Source: Naegleria gruberi (lineage: Eukaryota). Taken from it: a stretch of 64,000 bases of DNA. Below the pieces are notes generated by a model. That model was given only the letters and a program-made list of their open reading frames with translations. It was not told where the DNA came from and made no database searches. The DNA is taken from NCBI GenBank assembly GCA_000004985.1, contig GG738859.1. One strand, given 5' to 3'. Below, piece after piece: positions 8,044 through 33,238 of this stretch (position 1 is its first letter; every line of letters begins with the position of its first letter). The translations under genes and the position numbers were made by a program.

Positions 8044-8116
8044 GCCGACATAGCTCAGTTGGGAGAGCGTAAGACTGAAGATCTTAAGGTCCCTGGTTCG
8101 ATCCCTGGTGTCGGCA
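8044..8116 (+). tRNA. tRNA-Phe (anticodon GAA)
   Basis: GCCGACATAGCTCAGTTGGGAGAGCGTAAGACTGAAGATCTTAAGGTCCCTGGTTCGATCCCTGGTGTCGGCA. Canonical cloverleaf, A box TAGCTCAGTTGGGAGAGC, B box GGTTCGATCC, anticodon loop CTGAAGA. Near-identical to textbook eukaryotic tRNA-Phe. A T-run (TTTT) lies 4 nt downstream. Confidence 0.9.
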
Positions 8117-22095: not shown

Positions 22096-23211
22096 TTATA
22101 TAATGTTCAGTGTTTCCAAATCCTTTTGAAGCAAGATATTCTTCACATCATTAAAGACCATCTTGATATTATTGGTGTTGGTGGCTGTTGTTACATGGCT
22201 ATAGAGTTGAGTATTCTTAGAGTTAAGTGATTTGAATTTGTTAATGATGAAATCTCGAGCTGATTCATATTGATGTCCTCCATGGTAATCACTAAAGGCC
22301 ACTCTCAGATCTGCATTCTTAATCTTTTCTCTGAACAGATCATCCTTGTTGAATAAGACAATAATTGGAATGGACTTGAAACAATCAAGCTCACAAATTT
22401 CTCTAAAAAGAAGTAAGCTTTCGTGTATTCTATTGGTAGTCTTATCTTCCTCTAAATTCATATCAAAATCATTAAGTGAGCAAATAAACACGACAGCTGT
22501 AGTATCCACAAAGGCATGAATCCACTTTCTTCTCTCCGTCCTTTGACCACCAACATCTGTGAATTTCCATCTGTATCCATCGGCATCAAATTCAACCTCA
22601 GTAATACCTAGGGTGGTTAATCTGGCTTTGATGATGTCTTCCTGGGTGGCTACATAATCTGGTTTGCATATTCTTTCACAATGATCCAGGAAACTGTTGA
22701 ATTACCAATGATGAAAATTAATTAATATATATTAATTAGAACAATCATTTCTTAAATAACATCTTCAAATAACTTACTATTCAATAGTGTCATTGATGGT
22801 AAATTCAGATCTTTTGGCCAAACACTGTTTCATGCCTGGATCTTTCCACAGTTTTGCAATCTTTCCAGCAATATCCTCTCCATAATTCTCGGTTTTTGTT
22901 GTTAGGATTTTTTGAATTTCAATAACAGGCTCCTTAGCAATAGACATTATCATTGAGGCTGTATCTTCATTCTCCTTCATCAACTCAATTCCTAGATCGT
23001 GCATTGCTTTGAGTATTGCCGAACATCCCTCAATCAAATTCTCTCTCACCACATTCGACATGGAAATCTTTTCCTTCTCTGTGAAGGGCTTATTATTAAT
23101 AATTCTCAATTGTTTAAAGAGTGTACTCTTTCCACTTTGAGCCGTACCTAGCAAAATGAGCTTTAACACTCTCTTTGGTTCATCTTCACCTCCACAGTCA
23201 AAGCAGCCCAT
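22096..23211 (-). CDS. heterotrimeric G protein alpha subunit (divergent), 2 exons (~23211-22778, ~22693-22096), ~344 aa
   Basis: MGCFDCGG... (N-terminal Gly/Cys lipidation signals), P-loop LLGTAQSGKST, switch/G3 DVGGQRTERRKW, NKDD (NKxD), TTATNT (TCAT-like). Intron has GTAAGT donor / CAG acceptor. The helical-domain region is divergent. Confidence 0.85.
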
Positions 23212-28104: not shown

Positions 28105-29357
28105 ATGGGTATTTGCGCAACTAAACAACCAGGATCAGTCCAAGCACTGAATGAAATTGAAAAGGGAAGACAACAACAAGAAAGAGAAATTAAAGTCTTG
28201 CTTTTGGGAGCAGGTGAATCTGGTAAGAGTAAGTAATCATAACGATAATTGATGGTGGTTGACCATATACAACAATAACAATTTTAATAACTACAAACTA
28301 CTAATGATTGTTTGTTGAATGAACATGTTTAATAATGGTAATGATGATCATATGAAAACCTTTTATCTTTGTTTCTTCAACTTTAACTGATTATAAATTT
28401 ATATATTGATGATTTATAATAGGTACCATTTTCAAGCAAATGAAGATTATCCATCAAAATGGTTACTCTGAAGAAGAAAGAGAATCATACAAGGAAATTA
28501 TCTACGGTAACATATTAAAAGCCATGAAGAATCTGGTCCAAGCGACCTTCTCTTTTAACATTCCTATTGAACAGGAAGAAAACAGAGAACGTGCTGGTAA
28601 GATCAATGAACTCGAACAAGAAGCTCTGCTACACGTACATAAATATTGGACAGCTGAAATTGCTGACGATATTCAATGTTTGTGGTCAGATCCTGGTATT
28701 CAAAAAGTTTTTGAGAAACGTAACGAATTCCAATTGGACGATTCTGCTCCATACTATTTCACTCACCTTGATAGAATTAAACAAGCTGACTATAAGCCAA
28801 CTTTAGAAGACGTTGTCAGATCAAGAGTCAAGACAACTGGTATTGTAGAAATGAGCTTTAAATTAGATGATAGATCTGTAACCTTGATCGACGTTGGTGG
28901 CCAAAGAAACGAACGTAAAAAGTGGATTCACTGCTTTGAAGGTGTCACTGCTATTATCTTTGTTACATCACTGAGTGAGTATGATCAAAGATGTTATGAA
29001 GATGATTCCACCAACCGTATGCATGAATCCTTGCTATTGTTCGACGAAATTTGTAACTCTAGATGGTTCATGGATACATCCATTATCTTGTTCTTGAACA
29101 AGATGGATTTGTTCAAGGAAAAGATCAAGAGAACTGATCTCAGTCAATTCTTCCAAGAATATGAAGGTGGTAGAAACTTTGAAACTGCTGCCAGCTTTAT
29201 TCGTTCTAAATTCGAAGAAAAGAACAGAAATCCAAGACACAAGACCATCTATGCTCACTTTACATGTGCCACAGATACACAACAATTACAACAGGTCTTT
29301 GATGCCATCAAGGATATCATTCTTAACAAGACTTTAAGAGAACAAGGTCTTTTCTAA
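28105..29357 (+). CDS. G protein alpha subunit, Galpha-i/GPA1-class (352 aa); 2 exons (~28105-28228, ~28423-29357)
   Basis: MGICATKQ...KVLLLGAGESGK | STIFKQMKIIHQNGYSEEE...RVKTTGIVE...DVGGQRNERKKWIHCFEGVTAIIF...SIILFLNKMDLFKEKI...FTCATDTQQ...REQGLF. All G1-G5 boxes are canonical. The ~194-nt intron (GTAAGT...TATAATAG) falls in the P-loop codons. Confidence 0.9.
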
Positions 29358-29575
29358 ATGTCCTCCCACATTGTCATATTACTCTATTATCAACCCAAAA
29401 GAACTTTTCCAATTCTCTTTCCCCACAAACAATCACACATAAAACATCGAATGAAAATAAGTGTTCAATTTTGTAAATAACATAATACTTCAATTCCAAT
29501 TAAATAAAAACACATTAAAAACATTATGAAACAAACGAGTGAGCGAACAAACTCAAATAATGAAAGAACTAAAAA

Positions 29576-30661
29576 ATGGGTGCAAAACAAAGCAGGAATA
29601 GTGCAAAGAAAGTAGACGAAAGCTCATCCACAATACAAGAGAAGAAAATACAAGAAAGAACCGTTATGCTTTTCTCAAAATGCGGAGCAAGTACATTCAG
29701 CAGACAACTCACGAATGATAAATTACATGATAAAAATCAAATTGACTATTGTTGTCATGCTCTGTTATCACGAATGGAAAATTTTGATGAATTTTATTCT
29801 ATGGATGAAGAATTTGCAAGATTAAAGAATTTCAATCAATTTAATAGAATTCCAAGACCTAGGGAAATGCTTACAAGAATTTGGAAACATGACGAAATGA
29901 GACGAATCTTAATGGAAAAGTATCACAATGTTTGGAGATTTGAAAATTTATCTTTATTTATGGAACACTTATTGAATGGAAATTTTGATAATCAATTGGA
30001 AAATCCTTTTACATATGCTTCAACAAAAACAACAGGTGTTATAATTAGTGATTTCATTCATAGTGATCCAATTATTGGTCAACCCATTAAATACAATCTA
30101 GCAGAAATTGGAGGATCTAGAAGTGAATGGAAGAAAGCATTTATCTGTTTTGAAAATGTTTATTTTATATTCTTCTTTTGTGGACTTTCGGATTTTCATG
30201 ATAATCCTAACTATGATTTCGAACATGAATTTGTAAAATTCAATTATGTTTTTACCTGCAATAAGTTTCATGAGATTAATCCAAATTGTAGAATAATATT
30301 CTTATTTACAAAACCAGACATCTTACAATCAAAGCTTAAAAGGGGCAGTATTTATGACATTAAGAAGAATTATGAAATAAGGGAAGAATTGAAACAAATA
30401 TCAAATGAAAATGAAAGAAATGTCATCAATTCCATAGTATGTGATTTTTTTGCAGAGCACGAGACGGAGTATCACATTGTAAATTTACTAAATAAGGAGG
30501 AGGTTAATCAGGTGAGAGATTTGATTTTGAGTGGAGTGAAATCAAGGTTTCCATTCATTTCTAAATGTTTGAGAGATGAAGGAAAATGGAGGCAAGTTCT
30601 TTTCAGAATATTGAAAGATTCTAAACTTGGTGATATTTCAATAATTGCCAGAGGTGAATAA
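29576..30661 (+). CDS. G-alpha-like protein with degenerate nucleotide-binding motifs (predicted pseudo-GTPase), 361 aa, single exon
   Basis: MGAKQSR (myristoylation-type MGxxxS). Where the P-loop aligns it reads TVMLFSKCGASTFSRQL instead of LLLLGAGESGKSTIxKQM. Switch I STKTTGV is retained. G3 is EIGGSRSEWKK (catalytic Gln->Ser). NKxD becomes TKPD. Collinear with Galpha through WIHCFEGV->AFICFENV and ILFLNK->FLFTKP. Confidence 0.7.
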   Translation: MGAKQSRNSAKKVDESSSTIQEKKIQERTVMLFSKCGASTFSRQLTNDKLHDKNQIDYCCHALLSRMENFDEFYSMDEEFARLKNFNQFNRIPRPREMLTRIWKHDEMRRILMEKYHNVWRFENLSLFMEHLLNGNFDNQLENPFTYASTKTTGVIISDFIHSDPIIGQPIKYNLAEIGGSRSEWKKAFICFENVYFIFFFCGLSDFHDNPNYDFEHEFVKFNYVFTCNKFHEINPNCRIIFLFTKPDILQSKLKRGSIYDIKKNYEIREELKQISNENERNVINSIVCDFFAEHETEYHIVNLLNKEEVNQVRDLILSGVKSRFPFISKCLRDEGKWRQVLFRILKDSKLGDISIIARGE

Positions 30662-30719
30662 ATGTATTTAATTGTATTATTTTGAAATATATAGACAGTA
30701 CTAATAATATGAAGGAGAA

Positions 30720-30792
30720 GCCGACATAGCTCAGTTGGGAGAGCGTAAGACTGAAGATCTTAAGGTCCCTGGTTCGATCCCTGGTGTCGGCA
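30720..30792 (+). tRNA. tRNA-Phe (anticodon GAA), second copy
   Basis: 73-nt sequence identical to the copy at 8044..8116. Followed by AAATTTTAG (T-run). Confidence 0.9.
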
Positions 30793-31018
30793 AATTTTAG
30801 ATTTTAGTGTCTTCCCTTAACTGCACAATAGCCATTTTCATAACGATGCAATCTCAAAATAAATTCATGTTAAAAAAATGTTAGAAAAAAATTAATTCTT
30901 TCATTTTTGGTAGTTTACCATTTTGGTTAATTTATCTTCAATATTTGCTATTATCCTTTTTTGTTTTTTTTACTTTTTGGCTACCTTTTCCAAGTTATCT
31001 TTAAAAAAAACAAGCAAA

Positions 31019-33238
31019 ATGGTAGAATCACCAATTCTTCAAAAAGATCCTAATGAACAGCTGTTGCTACAAAGCCAAAAGCCACTTGGTCAACCACAAC
31101 AGCAACCTTACAATGCCATGCAAATGGAACTCACTCCACAACAGCAAACTCTGGAAAGTGTTGATAGACAAATGACTCAAGCATTTGGTCAACCATTGCC
31201 CCAACAGCAACCCATCCAATTTCAACAGCAACAACCATTAACCAGTAGTAGTGGTACCTTGCCAACTGCTAGCAATTTGGAAAGAAGAGAAGAACCTGAA
31301 AAACTTATTCAACCTTCTGAAGAATTAATGGAAGAGAAACAAGGTGGTAGTGCTCTTGGTGTTAGCAACATTTCTGGTTCTAGTAGTGGAGCTACTCAAC
31401 AAATGTCCATTTCTCCTTCGGTAGAAAAGTCAACCTTGCCACCCTTACCAACTAGTACCTTGCCTCAATCTGAACCATTTAGCCAGGAACAACATATGGT
31501 TAGTCATGATGTGAAAACACCTCACATTCGTGAGTACCCATGTATGAAAGCAGTTGTTACTTGTAACTATCAACAAGATGAACCAGAACACATGCTTGTT
31601 TATGTTGACAAGTATCCAAGACCTATTCGTATGAAATCTGATGAAATTCTTGTCAGAATGAAATGTGCTAGTGTCAATGATTTGGATTACAAAATCTGTC
31701 AAGGTAAAATTCCAGTTGAAATTCAAACTACTCCAATTCATTATCCGCTCATTGTTGGCGCAGATGGATGTGGTATAATTGAGAAATTAGGTGGAGATCC
31801 AACTAATCTCAGAGTAGGTGATTGTGTCTTTGGTTTCACCAATCAATTGGGTACATTTGGTGAGTTTGCTATCTTTAAGGAGAGAGAAGTCATGATGAAA
31901 CCTGACTGGTTGAGTATGGAAATGGCCAGCTGCATTCCATTCAGTGCTCTTGCTGCAATGAATTGTTTCCTTCTTGTTGATAAGAAGAGAAAGAAGAAAC
32001 ATGGTTTATTGGGTCCTTCCTTGTCAGTAATGAATAGAATTAGCAAATCACCTCGCTCAGTTGGTCAATCATCAAGCGTAGAAGAATCCTTTGAGAAAAA
32101 GGTCATTGAAAGCTCACAATCTCATCAGAAACTAACTCATGAAAATGAACCAATTAACCTTGAAGTTGTCAACCAACTGTTAAATGGTGACAAATCTGGT
32201 TCCATTCTCATCCAAGGAGGTGATACTTATATTGGCTCTTGGTGTATCTTACTAGCACGTTACTATTTTGGAGCTCAACGTATCTATACAACCATCAGTA
32301 CAATGGACAATGAAGAATATGTTAGAAAGATGGGTGCTGATGTCATTCTCAATTCACACGATGCCAAATATGAAGAAACCATTGAAAAAGATTTGTTGCA
32401 ATATTGGGAAACATTTTGTTGTGAATTGGATCCTCACAAGAATCAACAAACAATGCAACCTCCAGCAACCTCTACATTGAATACAAGTACTGGTAGTGAA
32501 ACTGTAACCCAACAAATGCAACCAACTTCAATGGTCAATCCACATCAAATGCAAACTACCCAACAAACCATGCCTAGCTCAAACATGCAACAAACTTCAT
32601 ACACAACCACTACAGAGACAGTTCAAGAACAAGTGGGTTTTCCTTCTTCTTCTCAACAAACTCATACAGTTCCAAGTCAAATGGAGTACAAGCCAAGTAT
32701 GATGCATCAAACAGAACCTTCCAATGTTTCCATGTCTCCTCAACAACCATCTCCAACTCATACTCCACTCACTCAATGGCCACATCCTGCCTTTAAATCA
32801 AAGAAGGAAATGGAGAAGTGTAAGCTCTTGATTTCAACACTCCAATTATCAATTGACACAGTTGGTGGTTATGATAATATGCAAAAGTCATTCAATTTGT
32901 TGAATGGAAGTACCAGTCATTACATTACTACCAATCCACCAATTGAGTTGGAACAAAAGAAGGTCAGTGGAAAGGATGTTTGGAAATTGGTAAGTATGGC
33001 AGCTGCAAACAGATTGAAGAGTTTCTTTGCTAATTATCCACATTTCCACCTCTTGCCTGCTGTTCAATGTGAGAGAGAATTGATGGTAGAGTTGATGAAA
33101 TGGTTTGAACAAATGGATAGAGATTGGATCCACAAGTTACTTCCATTCAAGACTTATCCAATGACTGAAGCTGCTCGTGCTATGGCAGATTGTAAAAAGA
33201 ATCCTTTCAAATTAGTGATTAACGTATCCAATGAATAA
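31019..33238 (+). CDS. medium-chain dehydrogenase/reductase (quinone oxidoreductase / zeta-crystallin-like) with Gln/Ser/Thr-rich N-terminal extension and insertions
   Basis: ADH_N/GroES-like segment ...ILVRMKCASVNDLDYKICQGKIP...YPLIVGADGCGIIEKLGGDPTNLRVGDCVFG... Rossmann segment ...ILIQGGDTYIGSWCILLARYYFGAQRIYTTIST...GADVILNSHDAKYEE. Long Q-rich insertions flank these. The first ATG in frame is MVESPILQK; the ORF track starts earlier at a non-ATG codon. Confidence 0.55.
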   Translation: MVESPILQKDPNEQLLLQSQKPLGQPQQQPYNAMQMELTPQQQTLESVDRQMTQAFGQPLPQQQPIQFQQQQPLTSSSGTLPTASNLERREEPEKLIQPSEELMEEKQGGSALGVSNISGSSSGATQQMSISPSVEKSTLPPLPTSTLPQSEPFSQEQHMVSHDVKTPHIREYPCMKAVVTCNYQQDEPEHMLVYVDKYPRPIRMKSDEILVRMKCASVNDLDYKICQGKIPVEIQTTPIHYPLIVGADGCGIIEKLGGDPTNLRVGDCVFGFTNQLGTFGEFAIFKEREVMMKPDWLSMEMASCIPFSALAAMNCFLLVDKKRKKKHGLLGPSLSVMNRISKSPRSVGQSSSVEESFEKKVIESSQSHQKLTHENEPINLEVVNQLLNGDKSGSILIQGGDTYIGSWCILLARYYFGAQRIYTTISTMDNEEYVRKMGADVILNSHDAKYEETIEKDLLQYWETFCCELDPHKNQQTMQPPATSTLNTSTGSETVTQQMQPTSMVNPHQMQTTQQTMPSSNMQQTSYTTTTETVQEQVGFPSSSQQTHTVPSQMEYKPSMMHQTEPSNVSMSPQQPSPTHTPLTQWPHPAFKSKKEMEKCKLLISTLQLSIDTVGGYDNMQKSFNLLNGSTSHYITTNPPIELEQKKVSGKDVWKLVSMAAANRLKSFFANYPHFHLLPAVQCERELMVELMKWFEQMDRDWIHKLLPFKTYPMTEAARAMADCKKNPFKLVINVSNE

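What the first reader, a model, noticed from the sequence alone, without database searches (positions are those of the whole stretch)
29576..30661. G-alpha-like pseudo-GTPase retaining N-myristoylation signal and effector/receptor-facing regions
The full-length intron-free ORF aligns collinearly with Galpha, but the nucleotide-contacting boxes are substituted: GAGESGKST->SKCGASTFS, DVGGQRSE->EIGGSRSE (catalytic Gln lost), NKxD->TKPD. MGAKQS at the N-terminus and the switch I Thr (STKTTGV) are kept. This pattern implies a membrane-targeted Galpha scaffold that cannot hydrolyse, and probably cannot bind, GTP. It could act as a G-beta-gamma sink or a receptor decoy. Nucleotide-free or dead Galpha paralogs are rarely described.
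Basis: partly seen in the sequence, partly recalled or inferred. Interest (0 to 1): 0.75.

Follow-up and report, generated by a model that had tools for sequence, protein, structure and literature searches.

The report
Naegleria G-alpha-like protein, GTP site lost
This is an intact gene of the amoeba Naegleria gruberi for a lipid-anchored G-protein alpha-subunit look-alike that has lost the residues needed to bind and split GTP. It belongs to a Naegleria/Willaertia-specific clade of such proteins, so it is a real but not unprecedented "dead switch", and its function has not been tested.

Summary

- The P-loop has a 2-residue deletion and Lys->Ala.
- The catalytic Gln is lost.
- DxxG has become ExxG.
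- TCAT has become VNLL.

The gene is not a one-off. It sits in a clade found in N. gruberi, N. lovaniensis, Willaertia magna and unnamed contigs. Shared clade traits are MGxKxS, [TS]KPD, YHIVN and a C-terminus about 30 residues longer, carrying FISPCL and L[TS]DIxI. Most clade members keep a P-loop. This gene and its 70%-identical paralog lost it.

Intact ORFs and dN/dS of about 0.4 argue against a pseudogene. The G-beta-gamma-sink or receptor-decoy idea is untested and weakened: alpha5 is short and followed by an insert, and no alphaN helix is predicted.

Deviant G-alpha motifs in Naegleria have been noted in the literature, and plant XLGs are a studied analogue. I rate interest as moderate.

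The parts
29576..30661 (+). Intronless 361-codon ORF plus stop: a divergent G-alpha-like protein, equal to N. gruberi NAEGRDRAFT_65833 / EFC46294.1 / D2VAE6
29576..29596 (+). N-terminus MGAKQSR. It fits the N-myristoylation consensus M-G-x-x-x-S/T and has no Cys for palmitate.
   Evidence: MG.K.S/T recurs in clade members P0003, P0004, P0007, P0008, P0009, P0102, P0110. The motif rule is from established knowledge; lipidation was not tested.
29675..29695 (+). Degenerate G1/P-loop SKCGAST. Compared with GAGESGKST it is 2 residues shorter and the invariant Lys is Ala. The Ser/Thr that follows is kept.
   Evidence: alignments; regex search; coordinates checked
29735..29977 (+). All-helical domain (residues about 54-134). 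It is shorter than the canonical one by about 22 residues. It is the second-best conserved segment between the two paralogs (86% identity, after the G4 region at 95%).
   Evidence: (helices 54-133)
30017..30043 (+). Switch I equivalent ASTKTTGVI. The Arg finger is replaced by Ser149. Thr152-Thr153-Gly154 are kept.
30104..30160 (+). G3/switch II equivalent EIGGSRSEWKKAFICFENV. Asp->Glu, catalytic Gln->Ser, Trp211->Ala. R, S, E, KK and CFE are kept.
30308..30319 (+). G4 equivalent TKPD. This is the clade-wide [TS]K[PV]D form of NKxD. Lys246 and Asp248 are (near-)invariant in the clade.
30470..30484 (+). G5 equivalent YHIVN, a clade-wide replacement of (T)HFTCA
30530..30658 (+). Clade-specific C-terminal module after a short alpha5: SRFPFISKCL loop (pLDDT about 91-93), an extra helix at 338-348, and the tail KLGDISIIARGE
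28105..29357 (+). Neighbour, not part of the protein: a canonical G-alpha gene 218 bp upstream on the same strand. It has one intron at 28229-28422, encodes 352 aa, and all its G boxes are intact.
   Evidence: (402 bits). It is not in the divergent clade and is 23% identical to the ORF.

Best explanation
The ORF is a functional N. gruberi gene for a membrane-targeted G-alpha-fold protein that no longer works as a GTP switch.

Shown:
- It has the two-domain G-alpha fold.
- It carries an MGxxxS N-terminus.
- It lacks the P-loop Lys (and the loop is 2 residues short), the switch I Arg, the switch II Gln, the Asp of DxxG and the TCAT box.
- It belongs to a monophyletic clade, found so far in Naegleria and Willaertia, with derived G4 ([TS]KPD) and G5 (YHIVN) boxes and a conserved C-terminal module (FIS[PK]CL ... 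L[TS]DIxI).
- In this clade the catalytic Arg and Gln were lost early, while most members kept GxxxxGK[ST]. P-loop loss is a later step, shared by this gene and its paralog NAEGRDRAFT_50404.

Inferred:
- The protein is myristoylated and sits on a membrane.
- It does not bind guanine nucleotide in the canonical way.
- It acts constitutively through protein-protein contacts. Candidate surfaces are the well-conserved helical domain, the switch-like surfaces and the clade-specific C-terminal module. It would work as an adaptor or competitor within Naegleria's very large G-alpha/RGS network.
- Functionally it resembles plant XLG2, but it evolved independently.
- Which partner it binds (G-beta-gamma, RGS domains, 7TM-RGS proteins or something else) is not known.
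For: - Identity and fold.
- Motif losses.
- Clade: a profile search of 1.84 billion representatives gives a distinct tier of hits that align through the C-terminal extension. Shared motifs are seen. Sources are N. gruberi, N. lovaniensis and Willaertia magna. All 18 aligned members hit Pfam G-alpha. NJ bootstrap for clade monophyly is 184/200, and 200/200 for the P0001+P0003 pair.
- An intact P-loop is present in 9 clade members, against loss here.
- Same predicted topology in the P-loop-intact relative P0004, with a short alpha5 followed by a loop and an extra helix.
- Constraint: the ORFs of both paralogs and of L001 are intact. 5.5% of possible single-base changes in the ORF would create a stop. 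dN/dS is 0.41 over codons 1-130 against the P0003-like part of L001, with synonymous excess p=0.005. Identity between the paralogs is uneven: 95% around TKPD, 86% in the helical domain, 38-55% elsewhere.
- Precedents: a G-alpha without nucleotide can still fold and bind partners. XLG2 binds RGS and G-beta-gamma independently of nucleotide. G-alpha-o K46E binds nucleotide poorly yet keeps G-beta-gamma affinity.
Against: - No expression, lipidation or binding data were available.
- dN/dS rests on about 130 codons and 62 differences. The comparison sequence, L001, is a mosaic that could be an assembly chimera.
- Gene conversion between the two paralogous loci could produce the patchy identity without selection.
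- Lys246 and Asp248 of G4, the Mg-ligand positions (Ser39/Thr40, Thr152) and Gly179-Gly180 are all kept. That is not what full relaxation of a nucleotide pocket predicts.
- No ortholog closer than about 30% identity was found outside N. gruberi and close strains, so long-term conservation of this particular P-loop-less lineage is not shown.
- The model coordinates could not be inspected, so where the C-terminal module packs is unknown.
Confidence: 0.6

Rival explanations
1. G-beta-gamma sink or receptor decoy. The dead G-alpha would sequester G-beta-gamma and/or occupy receptors, acting as a dominant negative like XLG2 or G-alpha-o K46E.
For: - Eight of the switch II positions that face G-beta in Gi1 are kept: R205, S206, E207, K209, K210, C214, F215, E216 (the contact list is from my knowledge of the 1GP2 and 1GOT structures).
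- The RGS-contact positions T182 and G183 are kept.
- Precedents exist.
- MAFFT can align the clade's last residues, KL[TS]DIxII, with the canonical C-tail NLKDCGLF. A tail-like docking element may therefore persist.
Against: - No alphaN helix is predicted for this protein or for P0004: residues 1-25 are coil at pLDDT below 60.
- The pre-beta1 segment ranges from 10 to 81 residues in the clade.
- Trp211, His213 and Glu186 equivalents are lost.
- Alpha5 is interrupted after 12 residues, so canonical insertion into a 7TM core is unlikely.
- N. fowleri has 13 G-alpha but only 2 G-beta and 1 G-gamma, and few candidate GPCRs.
Confidence: 0.15
2. It still binds a guanine nucleotide, or a related ligand such as a nucleoside or base, in a non-canonical way. 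It would then be a permanently loaded, non-hydrolysing G-alpha rather than an empty one.
For: - TKPD is identical in both paralogs. Lys246 and Asp248 are (near-)invariant across the clade.
- Ser39/Thr40 and Thr152, the Mg2+ ligand positions, are kept, as are Gly179-Gly180.
- The G4 region is the most conserved segment between the paralogs, at 95%.
- Clade relatives with intact P-loops probably do bind GTP.
Against: - The P-loop is 2 residues shorter and lacks the Lys. From established knowledge of P-loop NTPases, the Lys and the loop's backbone amides supply most of the phosphate binding.
- A charge change at that Lys alone makes G-alpha-o bind nucleotide poorly.
- The paralog has PGSGAST with no compensating Lys.
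- The P-loop region is only 54% identical between the paralogs.
Confidence: 0.15
3. It is a decaying duplicate, a young pseudogene or a neutrally drifting gene with no function. It would be one of the many excess G-alpha copies in N. gruberi (44 reported).
For: - It scores very low against the family profile: 62 bits, against 402 for its neighbour.
- All catalytic motifs are lost, and there are indels in core elements.
- No close ortholog was found in N. lovaniensis, or in N. fowleri if that proteome is in the libraries searched.
- dN/dS of 0.41 is only moderate constraint.
Against: - The paralogs differ at about 30% of residues, yet both keep full-length ORFs with the same ends. 5.5% of single-base changes would make a stop.
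- dN/dS is significantly below 1.
- Clade-specific motifs (TKPD, VINSI, YHIVN, FIS.CL, L.DI.I) and the MG.K.S start are all retained.
- AF2 gives a confident compact fold.
Confidence: 0.08

Closest known systems
Canonical heterotrimeric G-protein alpha subunits (Pfam PF00503), e.g. human G-alpha-i1, Entamoeba EhG-alpha-1, N. fowleri G-alpha-7, and the gene 218 bp upstream in this window
   Same: Homologous Ras-like plus all-helical two-domain fold. Also shared are the N-terminal MGxxxS lipidation motif, the switch I TTG, the switch II GG.RSE.KK..CFE core and the Lys/Asp of G4.
   Different: - 23-24% identity.
- The P-loop is shortened and lacks the Lys.
- The Arg finger, the catalytic Gln, the Asp of DxxG and TCAT are all lost.
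- The helical domain is about 22 residues shorter, and there is a 6-residue insert in the beta2-beta3 hairpin.
- Alpha5 is short and followed by about 30 extra residues.
- No alphaN helix is predicted.
Unnamed divergent G-alpha clade found in Naegleria/Willaertia, e.g. N. gruberi EFC42511, EFC45911, EFC39174, EFC44299, EFC39698; N. lovaniensis KAG2385849, KAG2386051, KAG2389242; Willaertia magna KAL9653390
   Same: It is a member. It shares MGxKxS, [TS]K[PV]D, VINSI, YHIVN, FIS[PK]CL and the L[TS]DIxI tail, and the loss of the Arg finger and Gln. The clade is monophyletic in 184/200 NJ bootstraps.
   Different: Nine clade members keep GxxxxGK[ST]. P0004 even keeps DVGGQ, and Willaertia P0036 keeps the Arg finger. 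This gene and its paralog have additionally lost the P-loop, the Asp of DxxG, the Trp of switch II and the NRMxES segment.
Plant extra-large G proteins (XLG1-3), especially Arabidopsis XLG2
   Same: A G-alpha homologue lacking the residues for nucleotide binding and hydrolysis. It still works through nucleotide-independent binding to RGS and G-beta-gamma. This is the best functional analogy.
   Different: The origin is independent (plant-specific versus a Naegleria/Willaertia clade). XLGs carry a long N-terminal extension with a Cys-rich region and an NLS. This protein has only 28 residues before beta1 and has a C-terminal module instead. It is lipid-anchored rather than shuttling between nucleus and membrane.
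Engineered or disease-associated nucleotide-free G-alpha (G-alpha-o K46E)
   Same: Loss of the P-loop Lys, giving poor nucleotide binding with the fold and G-beta-gamma affinity retained.
   Different: That is a single substitution in an otherwise canonical, receptor-coupled G-alpha. Here there are many further changes, and the receptor-coupling end is rebuilt.
PseudoGTPases in general (named from my own knowledge, not checked here: CENP-M, the p190RhoGAP pseudoGTPase domains, Rnd and RhoH)
   Same: A GTPase fold with degenerate G motifs, acting as a constitutive interaction module.
   Different: Those are small-GTPase or other lineages. Here the scaffold is a two-domain G-alpha.

Membership tests
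G-alpha (PF00503) as a homologous family | Significant match to the family profile | tested here: met
   62.3 bits against a cutoff of 48.8, E 5.8e-17, residues 58-315. PDB G-alpha chains match at E about 1e-6.
G-alpha (PF00503) as a homologous family | Ras-like domain with an inserted all-helical domain | tested here: met
Functional G-alpha GTPase switch | G1 P-loop GxxxxGK[ST] | tested here: not met
   --SKCGAST: a 2-residue deletion and Lys->Ala. The motif is absent from the whole protein and from the other frames.
Functional G-alpha GTPase switch | Switch I Arg finger and Mg-binding Thr (RxxTxGI) | tested here: not met
   Arg178 equivalent is Ser149. The Thr181 equivalent, Thr152, is kept.
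Functional G-alpha GTPase switch | G3 DxxGQ with the catalytic Gln | tested here: not met
   EIGGS
Functional G-alpha GTPase switch | G4 NKxD and G5 TCA(T) guanine-recognition boxes | tested here: inconclusive
   G4 is TKPD, with Lys and Asp kept and Asn->Thr. G5 is IVN in place of TCA. Both forms are clade-wide, including in P-loop-intact members.
Functional G-alpha GTPase switch | Binds and hydrolyses GTP | not testable with these tools
   Needs recombinant protein assays.
Heterotrimer-forming, receptor-coupled G-alpha | AlphaN helix and switch II surface for G-beta; free distal alpha5/C-tail for the receptor | tested here: inconclusive
   No alphaN helix is predicted: residues 1-25 are coil at pLDDT 58-60. 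Alpha5 is 12 residues and is followed by a structured insert. Eight switch II contact positions are kept and Trp211 is lost. Actual binding was not tested.
Divergent G-alpha clade of Naegleria/Willaertia (defined here) | [TS]K[PV]D, VINSI, YHIVN, FIS[PK]CL and the L[TS]DIxI tail; groups with clade members in a tree | tested here: met
   All motifs are present. NJ bootstrap 184/200. Profile hits at E 3e-22 to 1e-4 align through the C-terminal module.
Plant XLG | Long N-terminal extension with a Cys-rich region and NLS; plant lineage | tested here: not met
   Only 28 residues precede beta1. The organism is a heterolobosean. The protein falls in a different clade. It is an analogue, not a member.
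N-myristoylated proteins | M-G-x-x-x-[ST] N-terminus; myristate actually attached | tested here: inconclusive
   The motif MGAKQS is present and recurs in the clade. Attachment is not testable here.

The most novel reading that the evidence does not exclude
The clade is a new class of G-alpha-derived, lipid-anchored constitutive adaptors. In this class the conserved C-terminal module (FISPCL ... L[TS]DIxI) has replaced receptor coupling. In P-loop-less members such as this gene, that module, or a non-nucleotide ligand, would stabilise or occupy the former guanine pocket. This would explain why TKPD and YHIVN stay nearly invariant after the phosphate-binding loop is gone. If so, it would be a stepwise, naturally sampled path from GTP switch to locked binder to empty scaffold within one genus.
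Probability: 0.15. Interest if true: 0.65.

Novelty: new member of a known kind. Interest (0 to 1): 0.4.

Why it matters
N. gruberi is reported to have the largest known G-alpha repertoire, 44 genes. Its pathogenic relative N. fowleri is being examined for druggable G-protein signalling.

This gene belongs to a graded series within one clade:
- catalytic residues lost but the P-loop kept;
- then the Lys alone lost (P0008);
- then the P-loop deleted (this gene and its paralog).

Such a series gives a natural experiment on how a heterotrimeric G-protein switch turns into a nucleotide-independent scaffold, in parallel with plant XLGs. It also warns against counting all Pfam G-alpha hits in Naegleria as signalling GTPases. 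The practical value is modest until expression and binding partners are known.

Tried and rejected
- DNA for the paralog P0003 and for P0005 was not on record. Full-length dN/dS between the paralogs could therefore not be computed. Only the P0003-like 5' third of contig L001 was usable.
- A scan of JGI metagenome contigs with the P0001/P0002/P0003 alignment found no relative. The clade alignment was too divergent to make search patterns.
- Word-indexed protein searches with the clade alignment and with N. lovaniensis P0009 returned almost nothing beyond the queries. Presence of the clade in N. fowleri therefore remains untested.
- The AFDB Foldseek library was unavailable.
P0004 was modelled instead.
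- Anantharaman et al. 2011 (PMC3396428), the primary source for Naegleria G-alpha diversity, is not held. It is cited only through the review.
- No paper mentions the gene's identifiers.
- The first tree script timed out. The second used a distance formula that produced NaNs and a comb-like artefact. Both were discarded in favour of Poisson distances.
- Origin by recent tandem duplication of the upstream canonical G-alpha is rejected. The two are 23% identical, and the neighbour falls outside the clade.
- A hidden P-loop elsewhere or in another frame is rejected.
- No conserved link to a neighbouring G-alpha was seen at the N. lovaniensis P0006 locus or on the P0004 contig.
Full report
**1. 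What is there**

The ORF listing and translation show one uninterrupted 361-codon ORF at 29576-30661 on the + strand, starting MGAKQSRN. The window is 32-38% G+C. At that composition, a random stretch of 361 codons without a stop has probability about 1e-12.

The protein is 100% identical to a Naegleria gruberi 'predicted protein', EFC46294.1 / XP_002679038.1 / D2VAE6 / NAEGRDRAFT_65833, on a 530-kb scaffold. The window is therefore N. gruberi nuclear DNA, and the public gene model is also intronless. No paper in the library mentions its identifiers.

**2. Is it a G-alpha?**

Yes, by homology and by fold.
- Pfam G-alpha scores 62.3 bits (cutoff 48.8, E 5.8e-17) over residues 58-315. The gene immediately upstream scores 402 bits.
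- phmmer against PDB sequences finds only G-alpha chains, at E about 1e-6.
- An AlphaFold2 model built on a 122-sequence alignment is confident: mean pLDDT 83.1, pTM 0.81.
- Foldseek against the PDB returns G-alpha chains in all top 50 places, with TM 0.55-0.66 over about 335 columns at 15-19% identity.

**3. The motif losses**

| Element | Canonical | This ORF | Note |
|---|---|---|---|
| G1 / P-loop | GAGESGKST | --SKCGAST | 2-residue deletion; invariant Lys is Ala; the following Ser/Thr is kept |
| Switch I | (T)RVKTTGI | ASTKTTGV | Arg finger -> Ser149; Thr152, Thr153, Gly154 kept |
| G3 | DVGGQ | EIGGS | |
| Switch II | RSERKKWIHCFE | RSEWKKAFICFE | |
| G4 | NKxD | TKPD | |
| G5 | HFTCAT | HIVNLL | |

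A regex search finds no GxxxxGK[ST], no looser Walker A, no GK[ST] and no DxxG anywhere in the protein. It finds no GxxxxGK[ST] in any frame of 29401-30800.

There are further differences from canonical G-alpha:
- The helical domain is about 22 residues shorter.
- There is a 6-residue insert in the beta2-beta3 hairpin.
- There is a 5-residue deletion where NRMxES normally sits.
- The C-terminus is about 30 residues longer.

**4. It is not a one-off**

A profile of the ORF plus its two close relatives was scored against 1.84 billion cluster representatives. Besides ordinary G-alpha proteins at E of about 1e-9 and weaker, there is a tier of hits at E 3e-22 to 1e-4 whose alignments run through the C-terminal extension.

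Their sequences share the following:
- an MG.K.S/T start;
- [TS]K[PV]D[ILV]L..KL in place of NKxD;
- a VINSI helix;
- YH[IV]VN in place of HFTCA;
- PFIS[PK]CL;
- a tail L[TS]DIxI.

Named sources are N. gruberi (EFC42511, EFC45911, EFC39174, EFC44299, EFC39698), N. lovaniensis (KAG2385849, KAG2386051, KAG2389242) and Willaertia magna (KAL9653390). The rest are unnamed ENA, Logan and JGI contigs. All 18 aligned members hit Pfam G-alpha.

A neighbour-joining tree used Poisson distances, 346 columns and 46 sequences. It recovers the clade in 184/200 bootstraps, with Willaertia P0036 branching first, and the clade without P0036 in 195/200. The window ORF pairs with P0003 in 200/200. The canonical neighbour falls outside the clade.

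**5. Order of losses within the clade**

- The Arg finger survives only in Willaertia P0036 (ARVKTTGI).
- The catalytic Gln survives only in P0004 (DVGGQ).
- GxxxxGK[ST] survives in nine members: P0004, P0007, P0009, P0010, P0011, P0012, P0036, P0102, P0110.
- P0008 has Lys->Thr.
- The window ORF and P0003 have the 2-residue deletion with Lys->Ala. They also have Asp->Glu in DxxG and have lost the switch II Trp.

My reading is that the clade became GTPase-deficient early, while most members probably remained nucleotide binders. TKPD is then a clade form of G4 and not a sign of decay. From my own knowledge, Rac1 has TKLD. The P-loop was lost later, in the lineage leading to this gene.

**6. Ends of the protein**

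The AF2 secondary structure has no helix in residues 1-25 (pLDDT 58-60). Alpha5 is only 12 residues (307-318). It is followed by a confidently placed loop containing SRFPFISKCL (pLDDT about 91-93), an extra helix at 338-348 and a floppy tail.

The P-loop-intact relative P0004, modelled in the same way (pLDDT 88.6), has the same layout:
- coil at 1-21;
- alpha5 at 317-328;
- a loop with FISPC;
- a helix at 349-359.

Across the clade, the segment before beta1 ranges from 10 to 81 residues. The segment after the Gi1-335 equivalent is 43-56 residues, against 20 in canonical G-alpha. The canonical receptor-inserting distal alpha5 is therefore not preserved as such, and an alphaN platform for G-beta is doubtful.

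One caveat applies. MAFFT can align the clade's last residues (KLGDISII, KLTDIQII) with NLKDCGLF. The extra about 30 residues may therefore be an insertion before a tail-like element, not a pure extension.

**7. Gene or pseudogene?**

The relatives are as follows.
- P0003 (NAEGRDRAFT_50404) lies on another scaffold and is 70% identical.
- P0002 is encoded on a 1226-bp ENA contig, L001.
- Both are full length with the same start and end.

5.5% of all single-base changes in the ORF would create a stop. About 30% protein divergence without any stop or frameshift in either copy is hard to reconcile with neutrality.

L001 is a mosaic. Its 5' UTR and codons 1 to about 140 are P0003-like, with 3 amino-acid differences from P0003. 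The rest, including 34 nt of 3' flank, is 99.3% identical to the window.

Nei-Gojobori on the divergent part (codons 1-130) gives dN 0.148, dS 0.365 and omega 0.41. There are 20 synonymous differences out of 62, against 11.3 expected under neutrality (binomial p=0.005).

Identity between the two paralogs is uneven:
- 95% around TKPD;
- 86% in the helical domain;
- 81% in beta6-alpha5;
- 79% in switch II;
- 54% around the dead P-loop;
- 38% in beta2-beta3.

This fits constraint on particular surfaces. Gene conversion, which the mosaic hints at, could also contribute.

DNA for P0003 was not retrievable, so a full-length test could not be run. No expression data were available.

**8. Context**

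- The ORF lies 218 bp downstream of a canonical G-alpha gene on the same strand. That gene spans 28105-29357, has an intron at 28229-28422 falling right after the GK of the P-loop, encodes 352 aa and has all G boxes intact.
- A tRNA-Phe gene lies 58 bp after the ORF's stop codon.
- A third, canonical G-alpha lies on the minus strand at about 22117-23190.
- The neighbour is only 23% identical to the ORF and is outside the clade. The adjacency is therefore not a recent tandem duplication.
- At the N. lovaniensis P0006 locus and on the P0004 contig there is no adjacent G-alpha.

**9. Mechanism**

Shown: the fold, the motif losses, clade membership and signs of constraint.

Inferred:
- Myristoylation and membrane location, from MGAKQS. 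The motif rule is established knowledge, and the motif recurs in the clade.
- No canonical nucleotide binding. The P-loop Lys and the loop geometry are essential in P-loop NTPases. G-alpha-o K46E alone binds nucleotide poorly yet keeps G-beta-gamma affinity (PMC11300612).
- Action as a constitutive binder within Naegleria's oversized G-protein/RGS network. N. fowleri has 13 G-alpha, 2 G-beta, 1 G-gamma, 28 7TM-RGS and 79 other RGS proteins (PMC9283941).

The partner is unknown. The retained T182/G183, S206, E207 and K210 equivalents leave RGS-type or G-beta-type contacts possible. The clade-specific C-terminal module is the most obvious candidate for a new interaction.

Retention of Lys246 and Asp248 and of the Mg-ligand positions keeps a minority possibility alive, namely that some ligand still binds.

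**10. Comparison with the known**

- The closest functional analogue is plant XLG2. It lacks the residues for nucleotide binding and hydrolysis and binds GTP-gamma-S 100-1000 times more weakly than canonical G-alpha subunits. It still binds RGS1 and G-beta-gamma and was proposed as a decoy (bioRxiv 10.1101/795088).
- The XLG review states that N. gruberi has 44 G-alpha subunits. [quoted passage not shown] 2011 (PMC8584482).
- I could not read that primary paper. I therefore cannot say whether this clade and its C-terminal module were already delineated.
- The general phenomenon is published. This protein and the ordered series of losses in its clade are uncharacterised as far as I could find.

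**11. Verdict**

The 'pseudo-GTPase' reading is well supported at the sequence and fold level. The specific G-beta-gamma-sink or receptor-decoy mechanism and the 'retained receptor-facing regions' are not supported by the anatomy. The claim of rarity is overstated.

Novelty: a new member of a known kind. Interest: 0.4.

Noticed in passing
window 22117-23190 (-), 28105-29357 (+), 29576-30661 (+): There are three G-alpha-family genes within about 8.5 kb. One is a canonical gene on the minus strand (MGCFDCGG..., P-loop GTAQSGKST, one intron). One is a canonical gene on the plus strand whose single intron (28229-28422) interrupts the P-loop codons right after GK. The third is the divergent ORF.
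   Followed up: partly
L001 1-1226 (ENA ERZ929261 contig) vs window 29461-30700: The contig is a mosaic. Its 5' UTR and codons 1 to about 140 resemble the paralog NAEGRDRAFT_50404. The remaining two thirds and 34 nt of 3' flank are 99.3% identical to the window. This suggests gene conversion or an allelic recombinant between the two paralogous loci in a close N. gruberi strain, or an assembly chimera. The identical stretch at the junction looks much shorter than the assembler's k of 127.
   Followed up: partly
window 8044-8116 and 30720-30792 (+): Two tRNA-Phe(GAA) genes have identical sequence and unrelated flanks. The second lies 58 bp after the stop codon of the divergent G-alpha ORF.
   Followed up: yes
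window 30923-33238 (+): A 771-aa ORF rich in Q, S, T and P, with ADH_N and weak ADH_zinc_N matches in its middle. It looks like a medium-chain dehydrogenase/reductase-like core embedded in long low-complexity regions. The start is probably mis-set, since the mechanical ORF begins at TTG.
   Followed up: no
L002 127-1245 (ENA ERZ929261 contig, protein P0004): This is the closest P-loop-intact relative of the window ORF (GTSDSGKST, DVGGQR). It comes from the same ENA sample as L001, but it has no 90%-identical counterpart among annotated N. gruberi NEG-M proteins. Either that gene is unannotated or missing in NEG-M, or the sample holds a different strain.
   Followed up: no
L003 4998-6906 (N. 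lovaniensis PYSW02000017.1): Clade member P0006 (301 aa) lacks the N-terminal P-loop region. An unannotated-domain 204-aa gene lies immediately upstream on the same strand. The two models may be one split gene.
   Followed up: no
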